Shown here: positions 12,179 through 55,454 of the stretch, in pieces
Position numbering within the stretch: the first letter of the stretch is position 1
Layout of the letters: the number at the start of each line of letters is the position of its first letter
Assembly (NCBI GenBank): GCA_037137555.1
Contig: JBAXKA010000002.1
Location: forward strand, 3,133-67,132
Length of the DNA: 64,000 nt
DNA from: Candidatus Moraniibacteriota bacterium
GTDB lineage: Bacteria > Patescibacteriota > Minisyncoccia > Moranbacterales > UBA2206
Reading direction: 5' to 3'
The notes under the pieces: model-generated
What the model was told of the DNA's origin: nothing
The model's input: only the letters and a program-made list of their open reading frames with translations
Database searches by the model: none
Made by a program: the position numbers and the translations under genes

Positions 12179-12291
12179 AAAGCGCCAAAAAATTAACTTT
12201 CTTTTAAAAAAGAAATGTCCCTGGCAAGATTGCTAGTGGCATGTTTTTCATGAGATTTTTTGTAATCAACATAAGCACATTTTTAATAATA

Positions 12292-12703
12292 ATGGACCCA
12301 CGAAAATTCAAAAATAAATACACAGCAAGCTCCGTCAGATTAAAAAATTATAATTACGCTCAAGACGGATTATATTTCGTGACGATTTGCACTAAATAAT
12401 CAATCATTTACTGGTGTTCTGACGCTGGGTAGAGACACATTGCAATGTGTCTCTACGGGTACTACACAACATAAAAATAAATTTGGCCCGCAAATAAATA
12501 ATTTATCATCAATTATTAGAGGATTTAAAGGTGCCGTAACAAAGCATACGAATATGTATTACCCACATTCCTTATGGCAACCAAAATTCTATGACCACAT
12601 AATCCGCAACGATGAAACATTGAATAAAATCCGTGAATATATAATCAAAAATCCGGAAATGTGGGAACGAAATAAAAATAATATAGAAAATATATTTATC
12701 TGA
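12292..12703 (+). pseudogene. degenerate IS200/IS605-family Y1 (RAYT/TnpA_REP-like) transposase: N- and C-terminal fragments, catalytic HUH core deleted
   Basis: N-fragment 'MDPRKFKNKYTASSVRLKNYNYAQDGLYFVTICTK*' (12292..12399). C-fragment 'IRGFKGAVTKHTNMYYPHSLWQPKFYDHIIRNDETLNKIREYIIKNPEMW' (within the 12440..12703 ORF). The HxH-containing middle is absent. Confidence 0.7.
12429..12456. repeat. 28-nt perfect palindrome GTAGAGACACATTGCAATGTGTCTCTAC (REP-like hairpin) at the deletion junction of the transposase pseudogene
   Basis: The palindrome was read directly in the sequence. Its outer arms GTAGAGAC/GTCTCTAC are shared with the element at 50662..50690. Confidence 0.8.
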
Positions 12704-39806: not shown

Positions 39807-41657
39807 TTAAGCTTGCTCTTCTTCGCTAAATTCTTTTTTGGCTTTTTCAATATCCAAAAGTTGTGATGGATCGGTGGTGATGATTTGATCTTCAGAATAG
39901 GACGCCACAACTTTAATCGCAACATGATTTGTGCCAGCGAAAAAAATACCTTCGCCAACATTACTTTCTAGGAGCAAAAATTTCTCTTGATCAGTCAAAT
40001 AGAAAGTATCGGAAATAACATCAATACCGGCTGGAGATTGTTTTAATAATAATTGCAAAGAAGAATTGGTCACAATTGCTTTGCCATAACGAGAAGACAA
40101 AAAGTCATTAACATCTTGCGTAATAGTTGTGAGGCCAGTGAAATATTTGCGACAACGCTTAGCAAGACCAAACAAAAATGAAGCGGCGTCTTCATATTTC
40201 ATCATAACCCAAGCTTCATCAACCAGAACAATGCGTTTTTTTACATTAGTGCGCATTTCATTCCAAACAAATTGTAGGATAATATACATCGCCACTGGAC
40301 GCAATTCTTCTTCCATATCGCGGATATTAAAAACAACGAGCTGGTTATCAACTTTAATGTTTGTGGCGTGATTGAGAAAGCCAGCAAAAATTCCTTCCGT
40401 ATATTTTTCCAAACGAACTGCTAAAACTTCTCCGCCGTCCAGACTACGCAAAACTTGATAGAGATCAGACATTGTGGGAAAAGCATCTTTTCCCAGTGTG
40501 TTGAAATCGGCTTCGGCTGTTATGTCTTTGATGCTGTATGTTTCATGAATAGCCCGATCCAAAACAGAATCTTCTTCTGGTGTAATTGATCCGAGCATAA
40601 TATGCAAAAGTCCCAAAAGATTGGCAATATTATTACGCAATATATCTTCCGGATCGTCATCTTCACCAACGCGAGGAAGATCAAAAGGATTGAGATGGCT
40701 GTTGGAATTGAGTGAAATTTTAATAAAAGTGCCTTCGATCGTCTCGCAAAGATGTTTATATTCATTTTCCGGATCAATAATAATCACATCAGTGCCGATC
40801 ATAATTGAACGCAAAACTTCCAGCTTGACAGTATAACTTTTTCCAGCACCAGATTTAGCAAAAACAACCATGTTGGCATTTTCCATTTGAAAACGATCAA
40901 AAATAATCAAACTATTATTGTGGCGATTGACGCCATATAAAATTCCCGTGTTAGATGAAAGCGTCGATGAAACAAACGGAAAGGTTGTGGAAAGTGGAGA
41001 ACTATTCATATTCATTCCCACATCTAATTCGTCATTAGCGAGAGGCAAACAAGAATTAAAACCTTGTTCGGATTTAAAAACGGCTGGTTTGACATAGATC
41101 AATTGAGCTTCAAGAATGGCTTCGATGCTTTTGATGCTTTTCGTTACGGCCTGTTCACTGTCGCCATAAGCGGTGATATAAAGTGAAAAACGAAAGAATT
41201 TTTCTGTGCCTTGTTGCAACTTATCTCGCAGTTCATCAATATCTTGTTGGGCAGTTTCCAAAGAAGGATCACGAATTAAACCTTTGCTTTGTTCGATTTG
41301 GATTTGCGATTCAACTTGCGTAGCACTTTTTTTGAGCGTTTTCAAGATATCATAAGTATCCACTGGATGGATAAACATAGAAATATCAATTGGCATATCA
41401 ATATTGATGATTGGAGAAAACCAATTGCTGTGCAAATATCTCGGATAAGCAATAATAAAAATTGTTTGGGCGATTGTTTCCCCGATGCGAATGGATTTTG
41501 GCATAATTTGAATGGCAGCGGGAGCAATAATATCATTGAGTCTGGCAAGGCCTTCTTGATAATATTTTTCTGATTCCAAAACGCTATCTTGCGGAGGAGC
41601 AATTTTTTTTTCCGAAGCGATATCAGTCGCATCTTTTTTGGCGAAAGGGTTGAGCAT
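39807..41657 (-). CDS. virB4: VirB4/TrbE/CagE-like type IV secretion ATPase, ATPase portion
   Basis: Walker A 'FAKSGAGKSYTV', Walker B-like 'RIVLVDEAW' and overall VirB4 C-terminal domain architecture. Confidence 0.8.
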   Translation of the reverse strand: MLNPFAKKDATDIASEKKIAPPQDSVLESEKYYQEGLARLNDIIAPAAIQIMPKSIRIGETIAQTIFIIAYPRYLHSNWFSPIINIDMPIDISMFIHPVDTYDILKTLKKSATQVESQIQIEQSKGLIRDPSLETAQQDIDELRDKLQQGTEKFFRFSLYITAYGDSEQAVTKSIKSIEAILEAQLIYVKPAVFKSEQGFNSCLPLANDELDVGMNMNSSPLSTTFPFVSSTLSSNTGILYGVNRHNNSLIIFDRFQMENANMVVFAKSGAGKSYTVKLEVLRSIMIGTDVIIIDPENEYKHLCETIEGTFIKISLNSNSHLNPFDLPRVGEDDDPEDILRNNIANLLGLLHIMLGSITPEEDSVLDRAIHETYSIKDITAEADFNTLGKDAFPTMSDLYQVLRSLDGGEVLAVRLEKYTEGIFAGFLNHATNIKVDNQLVVFNIRDMEEELRPVAMYIILQFVWNEMRTNVKKRIVLVDEAWVMMKYEDAASFLFGLAKRCRKYFTGLTTITQDVNDFLSSRYGKAIVTNSSLQLLLKQSPAGIDVISDTFYLTDQEKFLLLESNVGEGIFFAGTNHVAIKVVASYSEDQIITTDPSQLLDIEKAKKEFSEEEQA

Positions 41658-41682
41658 ATTTTTAAGCTTATTTTTTTTAAAT

Positions 41683-42369
41683 TTATTTTAGTTCCATTTT
41701 TTCTGTGTCGATATAGCCCTTAGTATCAAAGACTGTTGGGTTATAGGCATTGAATAATAATTCAATCAATTCTGGTGTTTTGAGTGGGGCGATGCGAACT
41801 CCAATGCCAGAAAGTCCGGCCGTGAGATGATCAACTCTTTGAAAAATTTGGCTCTTGTAGGTTTCAAAATTTTCTCTTTTTTCTAGAATATTTCTCTTGG
41901 GATTGAGCATGCTGGAAAAATTACTGAAAAAACTTTTTTCTTGATTTTCAATTGGAGCAAATGGCACAACTAAATAAAAAGTTTTGTCCATAATGTCAGA
42001 CATAGAAACCAATTGAGTGATAAAATTTTTATATTCAGAAATTTGCAAACGCATCAATTCGGTTTTTTGTTGTTTTTCTTTTTCGGTTAAAAACTCCACA
42101 TAAGAATCAATATTTAATTTTCGTGAGCTGATGAGGATTTGCAGGGGAAAATCAACCGAGTTGAGAAAATTTTGATATTGACTAATGATGGCTTCTTGTT
42201 CGTCAGTCGCTTTCAATTCAAAATTGATAGCAGAAACTTCCAGCACCGCCCGTAGCGATCCATTTTTGAGAACAATTACATCTTCTTTGACTTCCGCGAC
42301 ATCCAAATATTGTTGTGTTGGTGAAGCGGCTGCTTGTTTGGCGAGTTTTTGTGAATAAAGTTTTTCCAT
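41683..42369 (-). CDS. VirB4-like N-terminal domain encoded as a separate ORF
   Basis: 'VIVLKNGSLRAVLEVSAINFELKATDEQEAI' resembles the VirB4/TraC N-terminal region. It ends 25 nt upstream of the ATPase ORF, in a different frame. Confidence 0.55.
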   Translation of the reverse strand: MEKLYSQKLAKQAAASPTQQYLDVAEVKEDVIVLKNGSLRAVLEVSAINFELKATDEQEAIISQYQNFLNSVDFPLQILISSRKLNIDSYVEFLTEKEKQQKTELMRLQISEYKNFITQLVSMSDIMDKTFYLVVPFAPIENQEKSFFSNFSSMLNPKRNILEKRENFETYKSQIFQRVDHLTAGLSGIGVRIAPLKTPELIELLFNAYNPTVFDTKGYIDTEKMELK

Positions 42370-42373
42370 AGTT

Positions 42374-42769
42374 TTATTTTAGTCTTGTGTCTAATAATTT
42401 GGAAACATCAGCGACTCGTTGTGAATCAAATCGCTTTTTTTCAATTACAGGTATTGAAACTTGTTTGACGGCATCTCGTTGAATTTTTTCTGGTGTGCGA
42501 TGCCAAAGATATCTTTTTGGTCGAGTGGCAAACATAACAGATGAAATAATAAATTTAATCAGTGGTTGATTGTATGGTCGATAAAAAGCCAGTGAGCCAA
42601 AAATTAAACCAACAATGATAGCGGAAATAACAAAAGCGGATTGATCAAAAAGTCCATAGCAGAATAATAAAATAACGGCTCCGGCTGCGAGCCAGCCGAG
42701 TTGTTTGGCGGTGAGTGGTCCGACAATTTTATCTTCAATATCAATAAATTGGGGAACGCTGAAGATCAT
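42374..42769 (-). CDS. PrgI/VirB3-like small membrane protein
   Basis: 'IVGPLTAKQLGWLAAGAV' followed by two TM helices, positioned immediately upstream of VirB4 as in Gram-positive T4SS. Confidence 0.6.
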   Translation of the reverse strand: MIFSVPQFIDIEDKIVGPLTAKQLGWLAAGAVILLFCYGLFDQSAFVISAIIVGLIFGSLAFYRPYNQPLIKFIISSVMFATRPKRYLWHRTPEKIQRDAVKQVSIPVIEKKRFDSQRVADVSKLLDTRLK

Positions 42770-42793
42770 AAGCTTTATTTAAAAAATATTTTT

Positions 42794-44008
42794 TTATTCC
42801 TCTCTTAAGTCTAACACATTTTTGGGAACTTGTCTCGGAGCAGAATAATTTATGCGAGCAACTGGCAAGCGGGAGGGATAATTTTTTTGAATTGGTTGGA
42901 TTGTTTGCGGAATTTCCGGTGGTTTTTCAGTGGATAATGTTTGCGGTGAAGAAAAATGAATGTTGCTGGTGGTGTTTTCAATTTTGTTTTCAGCTATATT
43001 TTTATTTTCCAGTATTTCTTTTTGGGGCAAGTCTCTTCTCCAGGCACTGATGCGATCTTCATCAGATTGAAATTTTTGTTGTGGTTGAGAAACTTTTTGG
43101 GTGGGATAATAATTTTCTTGACCGCGTCGGATTTCGGCTGGTTCCAGTTCATTATTGCGAAAATTAGGTCTAAATGGCGGTCTTTTTAGTGCTTGTGGTT
43201 GAGCAATAACTTTTTTTTCTGGCAAACTAAAAAGGACTTGTTTGGTGACAGTATTCACTGTGAGCGGAATATTATTTTCAAGAGAATCAATAATAATAGT
43301 TAATTTTTCACGATCAGTTTCTGAAAGTGTGCGAGTGTTTTCATTTTTGAAAAGATAATTTCCTCGCACGATTGGATCGTGGTTGCTGATGCCAACAGTA
43401 AAAGTGTAATCAGAAAGCCAATTTTTAATCGATGGTCGCACTGGTTCAGGAAAAATTTTCAATTTAATGTGTGCCGAAGTGATCAACTGTTCACCAAGCG
43501 CCGCATATTTTTCGATAGCGATTGAGATGGGGAGTTTTTCGAGTTGAGCTTGTTGTTTTTTTAATGTTTCTTCTTCTTTTCTTCGTTCTTGTGCTTTTTC
43601 TTTTTCTTCTTCCATGATCCATGGTTCTAATTCTAGAACTTTTTTCCACGCTTCATCTTCAGAAAGTAACGGAGCTGATTTTTTCTTTGACCATTCTTCG
43701 AGCAAGCCTTGTGCATCTTTGAAAAAATCGGGAAAACGAGCATAAATTCGATTGTTTATTTCATACGAAATACCAAAAATAATTTGCTCGGCTTGTTTCA
43801 AGTCTTTGGCGATTATTGCTGGATAATCTTTTAGTTTTATTTCGTCGATGAAAATAAGGGCGATTGGACTAGACAAAAAAGCAACAAAATTTTCTTCTAG
43901 CCCATACATAAAACAAACTTTTTCAACTTCAAAATACGGGATATCTGATGAAAGAAAATCTTGTAATATTTTCGGCAGTTTACTTTTTTTCTCTAAATAA
44001 TTATTCAT
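42794..44008 (-). CDS. hypothetical protein (coiled-coil, Gln/Pro-rich C-terminus)
   Basis: 404 aa, no TM helix, Lys/Glu-rich central region. Confidence 0.45.
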   Translation of the reverse strand: MNNYLEKKSKLPKILQDFLSSDIPYFEVEKVCFMYGLEENFVAFLSSPIALIFIDEIKLKDYPAIIAKDLKQAEQIIFGISYEINNRIYARFPDFFKDAQGLLEEWSKKKSAPLLSEDEAWKKVLELEPWIMEEEKEKAQERRKEEETLKKQQAQLEKLPISIAIEKYAALGEQLITSAHIKLKIFPEPVRPSIKNWLSDYTFTVGISNHDPIVRGNYLFKNENTRTLSETDREKLTIIIDSLENNIPLTVNTVTKQVLFSLPEKKVIAQPQALKRPPFRPNFRNNELEPAEIRRGQENYYPTQKVSQPQQKFQSDEDRISAWRRDLPQKEILENKNIAENKIENTTSNIHFSSPQTLSTEKPPEIPQTIQPIQKNYPSRLPVARINYSAPRQVPKNVLDLREE

Positions 44009-44028
44009 TGTAGATGTGAAAAAAATAA

Positions 44029-46299
44029 TTAGGTCCTATGGCGTAGGTCTGGATCCCCGTTCGCTCTTGCAAGATTTTTTGCCCCTCTTGTTCCAGCATT
44101 AGGATTAGCTAATGCAGTGGCGTTAGTTCTTATGGCAGTAAATAATGCAGATTGAGCTACTCCATCGTTGGCATTAATAATATCTTTTATTTTACTAGGA
44201 TCTAGATTGTTGGCGAACTCAGCCATTAGACCTGCATTGTTGGTTGTGGTTGTATCCATTCTTTTTGCTGTATCACCATTAAATCTTTGCATGAGATAAG
44301 CCCTCGTGGCAACATCATTTGCGCTATTAGAGGAAATACCAGCATGAAATGTTCCGGTTTGAGCAAAATGTGCTGTTTGAACTCTTGTGGCTGTTTGAAG
44401 CTGATCATCAAGAGCTAGCCATGCAGCACTTCCTTTTGTTTCTAAATTTCTCAATGCATTGATTCCCGAGATATTTTGTAGGTCAGGAGCGCTGGCTGCG
44501 TTGTCAAGAGAAGCGGCGATCGCTCTTGTATAAGCAGGGCCTTTCTTCCTTGCTTTTTCCAAGTCATCGTTACTAAGAGCTCCAGTTCTAAGTCCAATAT
44601 CCATTACCCTATCGTTTCTAAGTGCATCAGCACCTAATTTATCAGGATTAAAATTGTCGCTTTGCATGTAGCGCGTTAATCCTGCTTCATCAAGAACGCC
44701 ATTGTGCGTGAAAACAGCTTCAGGGGCAGAGGCCTTCATTTTGCTTTCTAATTGCCTAGTTACTTGACTGTCATTGCCAAATTGTTGACGCACATTATTC
44801 AATTGTGCTCCTGTTGCTAAGCCTCTTGCTGCGAGTTCTATTGTAGCAGCTGCTCTTTCAAATTTATTTCCTGATGTAGCCAATAGCTCCAAGTCTAAAT
44901 CTTCTGCTGTTGCGACAGCATTTTGCTCTCCTGCCTTTTTCATTTTTGCTGCTTGATCAGATTCATACCGCAATCTCGCATCTGTCCCACCAATAATTTT
45001 TCCTCGCAAGCGATCTTGTTGACTTCCCAAATTTCCGCCAAGTTTATTTGCCCAAGAATCTTCTTTGGCTTTGGCTCTTCTTGAGCTATAAGCTTTGTGA
45101 GTGTCTTTGATAAATTGTCCACCACTCACTTTCATACCAACATTCTTCATCAACTTCGTCCCCGCACCCACCACCGCTTTCGCCCCATGAATTCCCGACT
45201 CTTGTGCTTTGATGATGCCGAGCCAAAGAATGATGATTGGGATTGCGAAAAAAGAAGCGGAGGCAATAAATTTTCCAAGCGTATCTCCGAAACCACCTTG
45301 ACCAGCAACGGTTTGTAGTCCAGCTATTTTTTTCATACTTCCGCCGGAATCAGAAATGGCTATAATCATTTGCGTGGCAACATAAAGCATAAAAACCATA
45401 ATCGGCCCGGCGAAACATTGTTGCATAAAATCTTTCCACCATTTGCTTCCAGCTTCAGCTAATGCTGTGCCGGGTAGAATTGATCCTACAAAAGCAATTG
45501 GGGAAAAAATAACATAAACAGCAAGCGTGATTGTTCGGATAACCAAGAGAACAGCAATGATGAGTAGTGTGATAGCGAAAATAAAAGTAAAAATAACTAC
45601 AGACAAAAGAAAAAGAGTATCCGTATTTTCGGTGGTAGGTGCAAAAATTTGATCAAGACCGCTCGCATCAATAATTGTCATAAAAGAATTTGATCCGCCG
45701 ATTTTTCCGAGGAAGCCATACATCATCATATTTGATGCATCAATAATAAAACGGGCAATGGGATAGCTGAAATTGACAAGCAGTGCCATGATGACAAGAT
45801 TGAGTAAAACTTTTTTGTAATTAAAGTTGGCAGCGGATTGAAAAATTGTAGCAAAGGCGGAAAACAAAAGCACCATAATAAAAGCGACATTAAAAACATC
45901 GCGAACGGTGCGCCATATTTGATAGATAATTTTATTGTCAATCACCGCCTTCATATTAGTTGGATTGACAATCCATTGAAATATTGTTTCAGCTAGTGAA
46001 AGAAGAAAGCCCGTGAATTTTAGTGCCAGCTTGAGAATTGGAATGATAATATATTTTTCTCCCCATGTTACTGACGAATCACCAGCAATCTCCGTATTTG
46101 TTTTTATTTGCTCAGGGGCTGTTGATCCGAGTTCTGCAGATGAATTGTCTCCAGAAAAAACATTAGCAGAAATTATCTTGGTGGAACTTATAAACGGCAA
46201 AATAAACGCAACAAAAAAAATCGCTAACAAAATTGTTTGTTTGTTTTTTTGAAAAAAAGTATTAACCTTTTTTTGTTTTAGCTTTGAGAAAAAAAACAT
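44029..46299 (-). CDS. VirB6/TrbL-like polytopic membrane protein with long C-terminal hydrophilic extension
   Basis: Signal/TM, then at least 6 TM helices, then a ~330-aa Ala/Gln/Asn-rich tail. It lies next to VirB3/VirB4-like genes. Confidence 0.5.
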   Translation of the reverse strand: MFFFSKLKQKKVNTFFQKNKQTILLAIFFVAFILPFISSTKIISANVFSGDNSSAELGSTAPEQIKTNTEIAGDSSVTWGEKYIIIPILKLALKFTGFLLSLAETIFQWIVNPTNMKAVIDNKIIYQIWRTVRDVFNVAFIMVLLFSAFATIFQSAANFNYKKVLLNLVIMALLVNFSYPIARFIIDASNMMMYGFLGKIGGSNSFMTIIDASGLDQIFAPTTENTDTLFLLSVVIFTFIFAITLLIIAVLLVIRTITLAVYVIFSPIAFVGSILPGTALAEAGSKWWKDFMQQCFAGPIMVFMLYVATQMIIAISDSGGSMKKIAGLQTVAGQGGFGDTLGKFIASASFFAIPIIILWLGIIKAQESGIHGAKAVVGAGTKLMKNVGMKVSGGQFIKDTHKAYSSRRAKAKEDSWANKLGGNLGSQQDRLRGKIIGGTDARLRYESDQAAKMKKAGEQNAVATAEDLDLELLATSGNKFERAAATIELAARGLATGAQLNNVRQQFGNDSQVTRQLESKMKASAPEAVFTHNGVLDEAGLTRYMQSDNFNPDKLGADALRNDRVMDIGLRTGALSNDDLEKARKKGPAYTRAIAASLDNAASAPDLQNISGINALRNLETKGSAAWLALDDQLQTATRVQTAHFAQTGTFHAGISSNSANDVATRAYLMQRFNGDTAKRMDTTTTNNAGLMAEFANNLDPSKIKDIINANDGVAQSALFTAIRTNATALANPNAGTRGAKNLARANGDPDLRHRT

Positions 46300-46301
46300 A
46301 A

Positions 46302-47327
46302 TTATTTTTTATATAATGCACCTGGGCCATAAGCGTTGACTTTTTTGTTGACTTGATTAACGGCTTTGTCTGTTACTTTATTAACTTCTTTGTTGATTTT
46401 ATTTTCTACACCAGAAATTGTTTTGTTCACGGCTCCGGCAATGGCCTTGGAAACAGTGGCAGCCACTAATTCGCCAATACTTGTGGCACTGGAAATGGCT
46501 AGGTTTGGTAGATTCTCCATATTTGCTTCCATTTCTTTATATAATATACCAGGCTTTGCGATCATGCCGTCGATTTTTTCACTAAGAAATCCTCCACCAG
46601 CAATACCTTCAGCTGTGGCTGTGGCTTTTTCCTTGGCAAGAGCTGTGTTGTATTCTGCTCTGATAGCTGAATCGGCATCCCAGATTGTATTGCCTCCATT
46701 GCCATCACCCATTAAGTAGAGATTCATATTGGCAAGCGAATCACTTTGAAACATTTCAGCTGGATCTCCGTCGTAACTTAATCGCCATTCTTTTGGTTCA
46801 GTTATATTTTCTCCCAATGTTTGAATATTTTCAGAGAGACTGCTACTGGTAATGTCAGCTGCATCATCGCCCAAGACAGCGCCTCTGCCAAAACCTTCAC
46901 CGGCAATGGTGCTGGCGCCGAGGACAGAATTAGAGGCTTTTTTATAATTAACACTACCTCTGCCAGAAGTAAGGCGACTAATATAGTCGTTGGCATAGTT
47001 TGTGGCATTTCTTTTAGGATTATTGACCAAATAATCTTCCCAGTTGGTAATAAATCTGGCGCCATTGCCACCGACACCGGAAATAAAACGATCCATTTGT
47101 TTGGAAAGCATTTTGATGGCGGCTTGTTTCAATGATCCCATCATCATGCCCTTGATTGAATAGGAAATTTCTGCTACGACTGTTTCATAGACAGAAGCAG
47201 CCATTGCATCCCAGGCTTGAGCTTTTTTAGGACAGGAAAAAGAAAATAAGATTAATAAAAAAATAAAAAAACCAGAAATAATTTTTTGGGAAAAATAAAC
47301 TTTTTGTTTTAGTGGGTTTTTTTGCAT
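46302..47327 (-). CDS. exported hypothetical protein
   Basis: Signal peptide. The C-terminus has a repetitive 'VNK..' region. Confidence 0.45.
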   Translation of the reverse strand: MQKNPLKQKVYFSQKIISGFFIFLLILFSFSCPKKAQAWDAMAASVYETVVAEISYSIKGMMMGSLKQAAIKMLSKQMDRFISGVGGNGARFITNWEDYLVNNPKRNATNYANDYISRLTSGRGSVNYKKASNSVLGASTIAGEGFGRGAVLGDDAADITSSSLSENIQTLGENITEPKEWRLSYDGDPAEMFQSDSLANMNLYLMGDGNGGNTIWDADSAIRAEYNTALAKEKATATAEGIAGGGFLSEKIDGMIAKPGILYKEMEANMENLPNLAISSATSIGELVAATVSKAIAGAVNKTISGVENKINKEVNKVTDKAVNQVNKKVNAYGPGALYKK

Positions 47328-50156: not shown

Positions 50157-50975
50157 TTATAATAATTCTGCTATTTTTTTCCAGTCTTCAAGTGTTAATT
50201 CTTGGGCTCTTTGTTTGGCGGAGATATTTATTTGCTTTAATTTTTGTTCAACAATAGTTTTTTCTAGTTTTAAGCTATTAGAAAGATTATTGATAAGCGT
50301 TTTTCTTTTAGCAGAAAATCCGGCCTTAATAAGTTTGAAAAATTTTTTCGTAACTTCTTGTTCTTCGCGGTTTGTATTTAATGTTATGTGAATAATGGCG
50401 CTGTCCACAGCAGGAACAGGTGCAAAAGCGGTGCGAGGAACTAAAAAAAGTAATTCAGCGGTTGCATAATATTGCACGGAAAGTGCAAGGATGCTTAATT
50501 TTCCCGCCTTAGCACAAATTCGCTCAGCCACTTCTTTTTGCACCATCAAAAACATTTCTGTGGGTGGATATTTTGTTTCCAAAAACAAACGAATGATTGG
50601 CGAAGTAATATAATAAGGAATATTGGCAATGACTTTGTATGGGTGGTTAATTTTATTATCTGTAGAGACGAGGCAATGCCTCGTCTCTACCGTTTCTGCA
50701 CTAATCAATTCCGGTAAATTAATTTTTAAAATATCAGCGTTAATGATTTTTATCTTGTTATTCCCGCGTAGACGGGAAGCTAATTTCACTGCTAACTCTT
50801 GATCAATTTCAATTGCAATAACTTTTTTAGCGTGTTTTATTAGTTGTTCTGTTAACACTCCTTCGCCGGGACCAACTTCGATCACAAAATCAGTCGAGCT
50901 TAAATTGGTAGCTTGAATAAGCTTATCTAAAATAAGCGGATCTTTCAAAAAATTTTGACCTAATTTCGTGGGCAT
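50157..50975 (-). CDS. ksgA: 16S rRNA (adenine1518/1519-N6)-dimethyltransferase RsmA/KsgA
   Basis: 'LGQNFLKD', 'VIEVGPGEGVLTEQL', 'VIANIPYYITSPII'. It contains an extra 'VETRHCLVST' loop encoded by a palindrome. Confidence 0.92.
   Translation of the reverse strand: MPTKLGQNFLKDPLILDKLIQATNLSSTDFVIEVGPGEGVLTEQLIKHAKKVIAIEIDQELAVKLASRLRGNNKIKIINADILKINLPELISAETVETRHCLVSTDNKINHPYKVIANIPYYITSPIIRLFLETKYPPTEMFLMVQKEVAERICAKAGKLSILALSVQYYATAELLFLVPRTAFAPVPAVDSAIIHITLNTNREEQEVTKKFFKLIKAGFSAKRKTLINNLSNSLKLEKTIVEQKLKQINISAKQRAQELTLEDWKKIAELL
50662..50690. repeat. 29-nt hairpin palindrome GTAGAGACGAGGC-AAT-GCCTCGTCTCTAC embedded in-frame in ksgA
   Basis: 13-bp perfect stem with a 3-nt loop. It shares the 8-bp outer arms and the central CAATG with the palindrome at 12429..12456. 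Confidence 0.8.
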
Positions 50976-54805: not shown

Positions 54806-55285
54806 ATGTATACTAATTCTCTCCCTGATTCCTTTGAGGTATGGAAACCAGGGCGTTCGACGCCCAATAAAAAAATAAATTTGGCTGAACGCCCCAGTGT
54901 TTGTCATATACTAACAGGTTATGCGGAAACGATTTAGTCGGGTGAGAGACATCGTCGTTATAACAAGCCTGTATTTTATGCGTATGACTCAAGTTTATCT
55001 CCAGTCTGATTGTTGAAGATGTTGTTTTACCATTCTCTGGTGAATTTTCACCTTTGAATGTGAAGGTACAATGCTAGACGATGCTAGCGTTTTTTATTTT
55101 TTGTTTTTATATTTTTACAAAAAATTTTGTTTTTATTTTGGGGTCTCTGATATCAGAAATCAGAGCGGCTATCGCTCGTTGGCGATAACACTTGAACAGT
55201 AAAACAATTTTCAATCACAGATGAATGACTAACTGTGATTGAAAATTGTTTTACCGTTCTGATTTGCAAGTTTTTAATGTTCAAT
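54773..55285 (-). ncRNA. candidate ~500-nt non-coding RNA of unknown class
   Basis: Consensus sigma70 promoter TTGACT-17nt-TATAAT upstream. Contains a 21-bp perfect hairpin (55200..55253) and a stable GGGCG-UCGAA-CGCCC hairpin, ends at an intrinsic terminator, and has no ORF longer than 13 aa that does not read through the terminator. RNase P (GGAAAGUCCGGG) and tmRNA (5' GGGG / 3' CCA) signatures are absent. Confidence 0.35.
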
Positions 55286-55291
55286 ATATTT

Positions 55292-55320
55292 ATTATAGCA
55301 GTAAAAAAGTTTCGAGTCAA
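55292..55320 (-). promoter_or_regulatory. near-consensus sigma70 promoter (TTGACT -35, 17-nt spacer, TATAAT -10)
   Basis: Plus-strand agtcaa at 55315..55320 and attata at 55292..55297, reverse-complemented. Confidence 0.55.
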
Positions 55321-55454
55321 CAAGAATATTTTTTTGGCTTGAATAGCGATTTATTTGATAGCTTTTTTTGTAATTTTTTTTAGCTATTTTCTATTTTTTT
55401 TATAACTTTTTTAAAGTAATTCTCTTTTTTTTCTTTCTGACAAGCCGTTATTAT

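What the first reader, a model, noticed from the sequence alone, without database searches (positions are those of the whole stretch)
50662..50690. REP-like palindrome inserted in-frame in ksgA; same family as the hairpin inside the transposase pseudogene
ksgA contains GTAGAGACGAGGC-AAT-GCCTCGTCTCTAC, a 13-bp perfect stem with a 3-nt loop. It is translated on the minus strand as 'VETRHCLVST', inside the variable loop before the conserved 'VIANIPYY' motif. That loop is about 13 residues longer than in B. subtilis or E. coli KsgA. The outer arms GTAGAGAC/GTCTCTAC and the central CAATG are identical to the 28-nt palindrome at 12429..12456. The inner stem bases differ but remain complementary, so the hairpin structure has been preserved rather than the sequence. 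This looks like a mobile or structured palindromic element family (REP/RPE-like) that tolerates in-frame insertion into an essential gene.
Basis: seen in the sequence. Interest (0 to 1): 0.65.

Follow-up and report, generated by a model that had tools for sequence, protein, structure and literature searches.

The report
Mobile REP hairpin inside ksgA gene
A 29-base perfect DNA palindrome sitting in-frame in a surface loop of the rRNA methyltransferase gene ksgA is a copy of a known kind of small mobile hairpin (a GTAG "double-foot" REP spread by RAYT/TnpA-REP transposases), here found in a Candidatus Moranbacteria genome whose own nearby RAYT gene is dead.

Summary
Positions 50662-50690 hold a perfect 14+1+14 palindrome inside an intact ksgA, and 12429-12456 holds a perfect 28-nt palindrome with the same GTAGAGAC/GTCTCTAC ends. 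None is expected by chance.

The REP-like reading is supported and can be made precise. Both copies are "double-foot" GTAG REPs (5' GTAG ... CTAC 3'). This is the type Quentin et al. [quoted passage not shown] The "transposase pseudogene" is such a RAYT, with its HuH region deleted.

The ksgA 29-mer is identical to the REP inside a second RAYT subfamily in other Moranbacteria, where it reads as RRDEALPRLY rather than VETRHCLVST. The DNA is therefore what is conserved, not the peptide.

The nearest orthologues (94% nt identity, same synteny) lack the insert. The insert lies in the only low-confidence internal loop of the KsgA model.

One extension: 72 of 120 CPR KsgA homologues carry palindrome-derived inserts at three loops, against 0 of 120 for YebC.

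Intragenic REPs and REPs inside RAYT genes are already published, so this is a new member of a known kind.

The parts
50662..50690 (.). 29-nt perfect 'double-foot' GTAG REP (GTAGAGACGAGGCA[A/T]TGCCTCGTCTCTAC) inside ksgA. It is read on the minus strand as VETRHCLVST.
   Evidence: It is identical to the REP inside RAYT subfamily-B genes L157, L158 and L159. It is also identical to an intergenic copy in an Omnitrophota MAG, L052.
50640..50702 (-). KsgA residues 92-112 (SAETVETRHCLVSTDNKINHP). This is the expanded loop between helix 87-99 and the strand that carries the catalytic N-I-P-Y motif. It is 42 nt longer than in the closest empty orthologues.
   Evidence: One search gives the DNA alignment with L001/L002. 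One search gives the protein alignment. In one search the mean pLDDT is 54 for residues 101-110 and 78 for 91-100, against more than 90 in most other blocks.
50157..50975 (-). Intact ksgA/rsmA gene, 16S rRNA (adenine1518/1519-N6)-dimethyltransferase, 272 aa.
   Evidence: PF00398, 5e-60. TIGR00755, 239 bits against a cut-off of 171. PDB KsgA hits; all family-invariant residues are present.
12429..12456 (.). 28-nt perfect double-foot GTAG REP at the canonical internal position of a RAYT gene. It differs from the 28-mer conserved in intact homologues by a complementary pair of changes (G9A + C20T).
12292..12399 (+). N-terminal remnant of a RAYT/TnpA-REP subclass 2.4 gene (MDPRKFKNKY...YFVTICTK, then a stop).
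   Evidence: One search lists the ORF; the homologue-profile hmmsearch hit at 12208-12396 scores 9.8e-14; the alignment shows about 215 nt, including the MPNH.H HuH motif, missing after this point.
12428..12703 (+). C-terminal remnant of the same RAYT gene, in a different frame. It runs from the REP-encoded GRDTLQCVST through NKFGPQ..IIRGFKG, WQPKFYDHIIRN and the Y motif (EYIIKNP) to the stop.
   Evidence: NF047646 REP_Tyr_transpos at 4.5e-9, below the cut-off; 60-73% identity to full-length 'RayT' proteins; 4.4e-40.
50761..50778 (.). Tentative: a small hairpin TTCCCG-CGTAGA-CGGGAA at a second insertion-prone ksgA loop. In L001/L002 a 21-nt palindrome is nested in its loop.
   Evidence: The stem is only 6 bp and could be chance on its own.

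Best explanation
The ksgA palindrome is a copy of a GTAG-type 'double-foot' REP. This is a 28-29-nt perfect palindrome with the form GTAGAGAC(G)-N4-5-centre-N4-5-(C)GTCTCTAC. REPs of this type are the cognate, non-autonomous partners of RAYT/TnpA-REP subclass 2.4 (RAYT Group 4), which are HuH-Y1 single-strand DNA transposase relatives.

Shown here:
- The element is real and far beyond chance.
- Its ends carry the REP hallmark GTAG on both strands.
- Those RAYT genes are also flanked by further GTAGAGAC REPs, which is the REPtron layout.
- The same palindrome superfamily, with many different but complementary inner stems, is dispersed in many phyla.
- The nearest ksgA orthologues lack the insert.
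- The insert lies in a low-confidence loop of an otherwise confident KsgA model.

Inferred:
- A subclass 2.4 RAYT bound the folded hairpin on single-stranded DNA (for example at a replication fork), cut next to the GTAG foot and joined a copy into ksgA.
- The insertion survived because it fell in a permissive surface loop, restored the frame (42 nt in total) and uses one of the two frames that avoid the TAG stop within GTAG.
- KsgA remains functional.
- In this genome the element is probably a fossil. There are only two copies in 64 kb, and the nearby RAYT has lost its HuH region.
- The perfect symmetry is kept at the DNA level, by arm-to-arm copying or template switching in quasi-palindromes, or by RAYT recognition. 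It is not kept by selection on the peptide or on an mRNA hairpin.
For: - Chance is excluded.
- Copy 1 lies in a RAYT remnant.
- Of 120 RAYT homologues, 88 encode VET....SL or RD....VST, which are the two open frames of the same palindrome. Most of the rest encode degenerate forms or RRDEA[L/M]PRLY.
- DNA check: L153-L156 all carry GTAGAGACGCATTGCAATGCGTCTCTAC although the genes are only 70-75% identical. L157-L159 all carry GTAGAGACGAGGCA[T/A]TGCCTCGTCTCTAC, which is the ksgA copy.
- REPtron layout: in L157, REPs lie 22 nt upstream of, inside, and 10 nt downstream of the RAYT gene. L156 has a similar arrangement.
- Other intragenic copies occur in an SMC gene and a PDDEXK gene.
Of 132 hits, 84 are perfect palindromes.
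- Covariation in the six inner pairs: 143 cells changed on both sides against 44 in shuffles, and 0 of 500 shuffles reach this.
- Empty-site orthologues exist at 94% nt identity with the same synteny.
- The AlphaFold model has mean pLDDT 90.6, but 54 over residues 101-110.
- Full-length homologues match E. coli TnpA-REP 4ER8 at 8e-6 and NF047646 at 64-69 bits.
- Literature: double-foot REPs and in-frame REPs inside subclass 2.4 tnpA-REP genes (PMC6006769); intragenic GTAG REPs (PMC3733652); TnpA-REP binds and cleaves folded single-stranded REPs using the GTAG motif (PMC3479197, PMC8266576).
Against: - No transposition was observed, and the mechanism of REP dissemination is unproven even in model systems.
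- Copy number is low here (2 in 64 kb), whereas classical REPs number more than 100 per genome. The rest of the genome could not be scanned.
- No intact RAYT lies in the window, and the cognate subfamily-B RAYT was not found in this organism.
- The filled and empty ksgA loops differ by more than a clean insertion. The difference is 42 nt, including a partial extra left arm (GCAGAAACG), and the flanking loop codons have diverged. The direction of change (gain here, or loss in P0003/P0004) is therefore not proven.
- Flanks of 84 copies show no clear target motif, only T at position -1 in 46%.
- All KsgA inserts of this type use one reading frame, which simple random insertion does not predict.
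Confidence: 0.8

Rival explanations
1. The hairpin is a selected mRNA element within ksgA, for example a translational pause site, an RNase III site or an attenuator. The palindromy would then be kept for RNA structure.
For: The stem is perfect and strongly folding. Palindromes recur in the same loop in many KsgA orthologues.
Against: - Close relatives at 94% nt identity do without it.
- The same 29-mer occurs inside RAYT genes in another frame and in intergenic DNA of another phylum.
- Complementarity extends through the would-be loop. G-U pairs are not enriched among non-Watson-Crick cells: about 12 of 51, against about 17% expected.
- Unrelated palindrome families occupy the same loop.
- There is no Rfam match.
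Confidence: 0.05
2. The insert is a protein-level adaptation. The extra loop peptide would give CPR KsgA a new interaction, for example with the unusual CPR ribosome.
For: - The ORF is intact and the insert is retained in several strains (P0001, P0002, L003, L004).
- All KsgA inserts of this REP type use the same frame, VET...VST.
- KsgA is far more insert-rich than YebC.
Against: - At least six unrelated peptide families fill the same loop, and many orthologues have none.
- The identical DNA encodes RRDEALPRLY in RAYT genes.
- The region has low pLDDT and no predicted fold beyond a helix extension.
- Turnover is high on the tree, with at least 29 state changes among 121 sequences.
Confidence: 0.04
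3. The palindrome is a double-stranded DNA recognition site for a dimeric protein, or a restriction-modification-related motif. It contains GAGACG/CGTCTC, the BsmBI/Esp3I-type site. On this reading it is not a transposase substrate.
For: Dyad symmetry is perfect to the centre. GAGACG/CGTCTC is nearly invariant in the superfamily.
Against: - It is physically and systematically associated with RAYT genes, both inside and flanking them.
- It carries the GTAG foot typical of REPs (PMC3733652, PMC6006769).
- It lies in coding regions in many unrelated genes.
- No R-M or regulator gene is consistently adjacent in the loci examined.
Confidence: 0.03
4. The two window palindromes resemble each other by chance, or arose through local slippage, with no family relationship.
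For: Only two copies are present in the 64 kb, and their inner stems differ.
Against: - Zero copies are expected in shuffles.
- There are exact 28/29-nt matches in RAYT genes of other genomes.
- Hundreds of family members are found across phyla.
Confidence: 0.01

Closest known systems
'Double-foot' REPs of TnpA-REP subclass 2.4 / RAYT Group 4 (Quentin, Siguier, Chandler & Fichant 2018, PMC6006769; groups of Bertels et al. 2017, PMC5581495)
   Same: [quoted passage not shown] - The protein motifs match: NH.H, WQ and YIxxNP, at about 190 aa.
- The distribution is patchy and spans several phyla.
   Different: - The host is a CPR (Candidatus Moranbacteria) genome. No paper in the searchable library links REPs or RAYTs to CPR.
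- The local RAYT is a deletion remnant.
- Copy number is very low.
- The ksgA copy matches the internal REP of a second RAYT subfamily, not the one in the window.
Intragenic GTAG/CGTC-tagged REPs (Di Nocera, De Gregorio & Rocco 2013, PMC3733652)
   Same: Short GTAG REPs lie inside genes for known proteins without breaking the frame, and encode roughly 10-30 extra residues. Closely related strains or species lack the insert.
   Different: That survey found the inserts mainly in replication and repair genes of Opitutus, Rickettsia, Thauera and others, with the GTAG tag unpaired at one end. Here the tag is paired (double foot) and the host gene is ksgA. Three ksgA loops are hit repeatedly by several element families.
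Rickettsia palindromic elements (RPEs; cited in PMC3733652 as refs 13 and 14)
   Same: Palindromic repeats are inserted in-frame into conserved protein genes of a reduced genome, in surface-exposed segments, without evident loss of function.
   Different: From established knowledge, RPE-1 is about 100-150 bp and specific to Rickettsia. No transposase is associated with it, and the sequence is unrelated. The element here is 28-29 nt, carries GTAG feet and is tied to RAYT genes.
REPIN-RAYT systems of Pseudomonas and E. coli (Bertels & Rainey 2011, PMC3116915; Messing et al. 2012, PMC3479197)
   Same: A single-copy HuH-Y1 transposase relative is flanked by its cognate GTAG hairpins. The hairpins are spread in trans and evolve with compensatory stem changes.
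   Different: Those systems have hundreds of extragenic copies, imperfect stems, inverted doublets (REPINs) as the replicating unit, and RAYT groups 2 and 3. Here the elements are single perfect palindromes, few in number and mostly intragenic, with a group 4 RAYT.

Membership tests
GTAG-type REP, 'double-foot' class (cognate of TnpA-REP subclass 2.4) | 5' GT[AG]G tetranucleotide at the foot of the hairpin | tested here: met
   Both copies start with GTAG on both strands.
GTAG-type REP, 'double-foot' class (cognate of TnpA-REP subclass 2.4) | Reverse-complement foot C[TC]AC at the 3' end, with a long perfect stem | tested here: met
   Both copies end in ...GTCTCTAC. The arms are 14 nt and 100% complementary. 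They fold at -14.9 and -11.4 kcal/mol as single-stranded DNA.
GTAG-type REP, 'double-foot' class (cognate of TnpA-REP subclass 2.4) | Physical association with a RAYT/TnpA-REP gene, either flanking it or inserted in it between HuH and Y | tested here: met
   Copy 1 lies in the RAYT remnant at the homologous internal position. The ksgA 29-mer equals the internal REP of L157-L159. Flanking REPs are present in L156 and L157.
GTAG-type REP, 'double-foot' class (cognate of TnpA-REP subclass 2.4) | Repeated and dispersed within the host genome (classically tens to hundreds of copies) | tested here: inconclusive
   Only 2 copies occur in the 64-kb window. The rest of the genome is not available. Other genomes show up to 4 copies within 8 kb, for example L035 and L105.
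GTAG-type REP, 'double-foot' class (cognate of TnpA-REP subclass 2.4) | Extragenic location (the 'E' in REP) | tested here: not met
   Both window copies are inside ORFs. The literature accepts intragenic members as exceptions (PMC3733652, PMC6006769).
GTAG-type REP, 'double-foot' class (cognate of TnpA-REP subclass 2.4) | Cleavage and strand transfer by the cognate TnpA-REP on single-stranded DNA | not testable with these tools
   This needs an in vitro assay of the kind described in PMC8266576.
RAYT / TnpA-REP subclass 2.4 (the gene at 12292-12703) | HuH motif NH[IFV]H | tested here: not met
   The motif is deleted in the window: about 215 nt are missing between FVTICTK and the REP. It is present as MPNH[LVI]H in all full-length homologues. 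The window gene is therefore a pseudogene remnant of the family.
RAYT / TnpA-REP subclass 2.4 (the gene at 12292-12703) | Conserved WQ and the catalytic Y motif YIxxNP | tested here: met
   LWQPKFYDHIIRN and REYIIKNPEMW are present in the C-terminal remnant. They align to E. coli TnpA-REP 4ER8 through the homologue P0122.
RAYT / TnpA-REP subclass 2.4 (the gene at 12292-12703) | Curated model NF047646 (REP-associated tyrosine transposase) above its cut-off | tested here: inconclusive
   The fragment scores 36 bits and full-length homologues score 64-69 bits, against a cut-off of 80. It is the only family hit, but the match is split by the variable REP-bearing linker.
Rickettsia palindromic elements (RPE) | Element of about 100-150 bp belonging to the Rickettsia RPE sequence families | tested here: not met
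   The element is 28-29 nt, lies in a CPR genome and is linked to GTAG and RAYT. It behaves like an RPE (in-frame and tolerated) but is not a member.
KsgA/RsmA (host gene) | TIGR00755 equivalog above its cut-off, with SAM-binding and N-[IL]-P-Y motifs intact | tested here: met
   The score is 239 bits against a cut-off of 171. All invariant columns of 53 homologues are conserved.

The most novel reading that the evidence does not exclude
The ksgA loops of CPR bacteria may be true DNA-level insertion hot-spots for hairpin elements, rather than merely permissive sites. At least six unrelated palindromic repeat families, including double-foot REPs, have landed again and again at the same three positions. 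All 27 or so double-foot REP inserts in the main loop share one reading frame. One palindrome is nested in the loop of another. This would imply a targeting mechanism, such as hairpin-into-hairpin or microhomology-guided insertion by RAYT-like enzymes at a recurrently single-stranded site. It would make ksgA a natural reporter locus for REP mobility in uncultivated bacteria.
Probability: 0.15. Interest if true: 0.6.

Novelty: new member of a known kind. Interest (0 to 1): 0.4.

Why it matters
The finding shows that the RAYT/REP system reaches into the streamlined genomes of the Candidate Phyla Radiation. In those genomes intergenic space is scarce, and the hairpins end up inside conserved genes.

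It also gives a clean example in which one mobile DNA palindrome is read as different peptides in different host genes: VETRHCLVST in KsgA and RRDEALPRLY in RAYT.

For genome annotation, it explains a large class of odd low-complexity peptide inserts and length variation in CPR proteins.

For REP biology, three observations are concrete and testable clues to how these elements are copied and where they land:
- the recurrent filling of three KsgA loops;
- the perfect-to-centre symmetry of the palindromes;
- the compensatory change in a dead RAYT gene.

None of this overturns current understanding.

Tried and rejected
- Rfam gathering scan of the whole window: no family, so no known structured RNA explains either hairpin. 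ARAGORN found no tRNA or tmRNA.
- Literature search for the REP-encoded peptides and for GTAGAGAC/GTCTCTAC: nothing relevant, only primers and Alu-like strings.
- Elhai et al. 2008 on cyanobacterial small dispersed repeats could not be opened. Any resemblance to SDRs rests on memory only and is not used.
- Exact 29-mer scan in IMG/VR viral contigs: no hit, so there is no sign of a phage vector.
- A crude regex for RAYT context in the genome-scan loci undercounted. It was replaced by an hmmsearch with a homologue profile, which still found only about 7 of 120 loci with a RAYT within the 8 kb. Most copies are therefore dispersed and not RAYT-internal.
- Search for an insertion target motif in 12-nt flanks of 84 perfect copies: only a weak T at position -1 (46%), which extends the palindrome by one pair. 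No IS200/IS605-like tetranucleotide appeared.
- I considered whether the insert is ancestral and was lost in P0003/P0004. The post-palindrome residues (DNKINHP) resemble those of more distant insert-bearing orthologues, but also the N/Q-rich ground-state loop (QNNFTN). The polarity could not be settled.
- The NJ tree on 247 columns is weakly resolved, so the counts of independent events are rough lower-to-upper guesses and not firm numbers.
Full report
**1. The observation**

Window 50662-50690 reads GTAGAGACGAGGCAATGCCTCGTCTCTAC, a perfect palindrome with 14-nt arms around one central base. It lies inside the minus-strand ORF 50157..50975 and is translated as VETRHCLVST. Window 12429-12456 reads GTAGAGACACATTGCAATGTGTCTCTAC, a perfect 28-nt palindrome.

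The pattern GTAGAGAC-N(4-30)-GTCTCTAC occurs exactly twice in the window, and no dinucleotide shuffle gave any. These two are the only long perfect GC-containing hairpins in the 64 kb, which is 34.6% G+C. Both fold strongly as single-stranded DNA, at -14.9 and -11.4 kcal/mol with z about -7.6 and -5.9.

The ORF is ksgA/rsmA. TIGR00755 scores 239 bits against a cut-off of 171, PF00398 scores 5e-60, and B. subtilis KsgA 6IFS matches at 2e-51. Names attached to the best homologues place the organism in Candidatus Moranbacteria, in the Patescibacteria/CPR.

**2. The insert is lineage-specific**

In an alignment of 120 homologues, the closest sequences without the palindrome are P0003 (87% aa identity) and P0004 (82%). 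They read ELIKQQDIA(S/N)YKVIANIPYY where the window reads ELISAETVETRHCLVSTDNKINHPYKVIANIPYY.

Their contigs (L001, L002) have the same gene order. Their ksgA is 94.3% identical in nucleotides but 42 nt shorter in this loop. L003 (NCBI GCA_964482625.1) and L004 are 97.7% identical to the window and carry the identical palindrome.

The difference is not a clean 29-nt insertion. It includes a partial extra left arm (GCAGAAACG just before GTAGAGACG), and the remaining loop codons have diverged. I therefore cannot say whether the window lineage gained the element or the P0003/P0004 lineage lost it.

An AlphaFold2 model built on 53 homologues has mean pLDDT 90.6. The only internal low-confidence stretch is the insert, with a mean of 54 for residues 101-110. 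It lies between helix 87-99 and the strand that leads into the catalytic N-I-P-Y motif. This is the behaviour expected of a tolerated surface loop.

**3. The 'transposase pseudogene'**

The ORF fragments at 12292-12399 and 12428-12703 are the two ends of a RAYT (REP-associated tyrosine transposase, TnpA-REP). The C-terminal piece hits NF047646 at 4.5e-9, below the cut-off. It is 60-73% identical to full-length proteins of about 190 aa that JGI names 'REP element-mobilizing transposase RayT'. A profile built from those proteins hits the two pieces at 1e-13 and 4e-40, in different frames.

Alignment with intact genes shows that about 215 nt are missing, including the HuH motif (MPNH.H). The gene is therefore dead. 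Full-length homologues match the solved E. coli TnpA-REP (4ER8) over the HuH and Y-motif regions at 8e-6.

**4. The palindrome is a built-in feature of this RAYT clade**

In the linker after the HuH motif, 88 of 120 homologues encode either VET....SL (46) or RD....VST (41), and one encodes both. Most of the rest encode degenerate versions or RRDEA[L/M]PRLY. These peptides are the two open reading frames of one DNA palindrome. The third frame is closed by the TAG within GTAG, as the sequence shows directly.

The DNA confirms this. Four intact Moranbacteria-type genes (L153-L156), only 70-75% identical to one another, all carry GTAGAGACGCATTGCAATGCGTCTCTAC at the homologous position. The window's dead gene carries the same 28-mer with a complementary pair of substitutions (G9A and C20T).

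A second subfamily, with ISPK..SLSVIIGSFKS in place of NKFGPQ..IIRGFKG, carries GTAGAGACGAGGCA[T/A]TGCCTCGTCTCTAC in L157-L159. This is base for base the ksgA element, read there as RRDEA[L/M]PRLY.

So the ksgA copy is cognate to a RAYT subfamily that is not present in the window. What is conserved is the DNA and not the peptide.

In L157 the RAYT gene also has GTAGAGAC palindromes 22 nt upstream and 10 nt downstream. L156 is similar. L156 also has a copy inside an SMC gene, and L153 has GTAGA-tagged long REPs in and at the end of a PDDEXK gene. This is the REPtron arrangement, with added intragenic copies.

**5. The wider family**

The loci came from Bacteroidota, Cyanobacteria, Chloroflexota, Planctomycetota, Omnitrophota, Zixibacteria, Desulfuromonadota and others.

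Of 132 hits, 84 are perfect palindromes: 60 of 28 nt and 23 of 29 nt. The ninth base is almost always G, and there are more than 30 different inner stems. Only about 7 of the 120 loci have a RAYT gene within the 8 kb fetched, so most copies are dispersed.

On 63 distinct 28-mers, the six inner pairs show 143 cells changed on both sides, against 44 in shuffles, and 0 of 500 shuffles reach that value. Complementarity continues through the two central pairs, where a hairpin loop would not need it. G-T pairs are not enriched among the exceptions.

This argues for DNA-level symmetry, through arm-to-arm copying or dyad recognition, rather than selection on an RNA hairpin.

The exact ksgA 29-mer also occurs in an intergenic spacer of an Omnitrophota MAG (L052). 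It does not occur in IMG/VR viral contigs.

**6. Comparison with the literature**

Di Nocera et al. 2013 (PMC3733652) sorted REPs into GTAG- and CGTC-tagged superfamilies. They reported GTAG REPs inside protein-coding genes in several species, encoding extra residues without disrupting the ORF.

Quentin et al. 2018 (PMC6006769) defined TnpA-REP subclass 2.4, which equals Bertels' RAYT Group 4. Its features are NH[IFV]H, WQ, YIxNNP, a length of about 194 aa, and a distribution in Cyanobacteria, Bacteroidetes and scattered phyla. They described its 'double foot' REPs, with 5' GT[AG]G and 3' C[TC]AC. [quoted passage not shown]

Both window copies fit that description feature by feature. TnpA-REP binds folded single-stranded REPs and cleaves them using the GTAG motif (PMC3479197, PMC8266576). 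That supplies the mechanistic model, which is inferred here and not shown.

Bertels et al. 2017 examined only extragenic flanks. No paper in the searchable library connects REPs or RAYTs with Patescibacteria.

**7. An extension: KsgA is a recurrent sink for palindromic inserts**

In the main loop, 75 of 121 sequences depart from the 9-residue ground state (E/K)QNNF(T/Q)N-Y. They fall into these groups:
- about 27 carry double-foot REP peptides (VETRHCLVST, VETQHCCVST, VETPRRGVST, ETHCNASLQ), some in tandem;
- 11 carry CHSERS..NLL..ILRLR..LRMT;
- 12 carry ..PSP..HPLPKGEE;
- 6 carry LKANEASEAK;
- 4 carry LPAGRQG;
- 3 carry FVDS repeats.

On a rough NJ tree these states need at least 29 changes. 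DNA from metagenomic loci confirms palindromes for several of these families (L005, L007, L009, L010).

Counting all sites, 72 of 120 KsgA homologues have an internal insert of at least 6 aa, clustered at three loops. For YebC from the same taxa and identity range the count is 0 of 120. In about 176 kb of CPR DNA around ksgA, 13 of 41 GC-rich hairpins fall inside ksgA, which makes up 9% of the sequence.

At the first site, L001/L002 carry a 21-nt palindrome nested in the loop of a small hairpin. That small hairpin is also present in the window at 50761-50778.

I cannot decide whether this reflects tolerance or targeting. The uniform VET reading frame of all double-foot inserts in KsgA is unexplained.

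**8. Verdict**

The element belongs to a published class, so it is a new member of a known kind in a new host group. The KsgA hot-spot and the symmetry observations are modest additions.

Confidence in the identification is about 0.8. The mobilisation step and the functional neutrality of the insert are inferred.

Noticed in passing
window 55194-55259: A long inverted repeat with 27-nt arms, 96% complementary, and a 12-nt loop. It lies in the 54868-55454 intergenic gap. It has no Rfam match and is unrelated in sequence to the GTAG palindromes.
   Followed up: no
window 50761-50778; L001 10204-10224: A small hairpin TTCCCG-CGTAGA-CGGGAA sits inside ksgA at a second insertion-prone loop. In the close relatives L001/L002, a 21-nt palindrome CCTGCCTGCCGGACAGGCAGG (peptide LPAGQAG) is nested within its loop.
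   Followed up: partly
KsgA homologues P0001-P0120 (three loops); L005, L009, L010 DNA: At least five further repeat-peptide families fill KsgA loops in CPR bacteria: CHSERS..LRMT, ..HPLPKGEE, LPAGRQG, LKANEASEAK and KPAYAEASAGEA. Several were confirmed as DNA palindromes. In total 72 of 120 homologues carry inserts, against 0 of 120 for YebC.
   Followed up: partly
L153 2635-2672 and 3674-3710: Two copies of a different GTAGA-tagged long REP (GACGAGTCCGCCAGCTGGCGGACTCGTC). One lies inside a PDDEXK_1 nuclease gene next to a RAYT gene, and the other lies at the stop codon of that gene.
   Followed up: no
L156 13674-13699: A GTAGAGACGCCCCATCGGGACGTCTC hairpin lies inside an SMC gene, 3 kb from a RAYT gene. 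It is another intragenic family member in a Moranbacteria-type contig.
   Followed up: no
L157 19379-20579: A bAvd plus reverse transcriptase (RVT_1) pair, the layout of a diversity-generating retroelement, lies 9 kb from the RAYT gene in Moranbacteria MAG GCA_030645735.1.
   Followed up: no
window 39807-47327 (minus) and about 60.8-64 kb (plus): By synteny with the annotated relatives L001 and L003, the window holds a TrbL_3/PrgI/TraC-like type IV secretion cluster. At its right end it probably holds a UvrD/PcrA helicase gene interrupted by an intein.
   Followed up: no
L052 225-253: The exact 29-nt ksgA palindrome occurs in an intergenic spacer of a Candidatus Omnitrophota MAG. Identical REP sequences are therefore shared across phyla.
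   Followed up: partly
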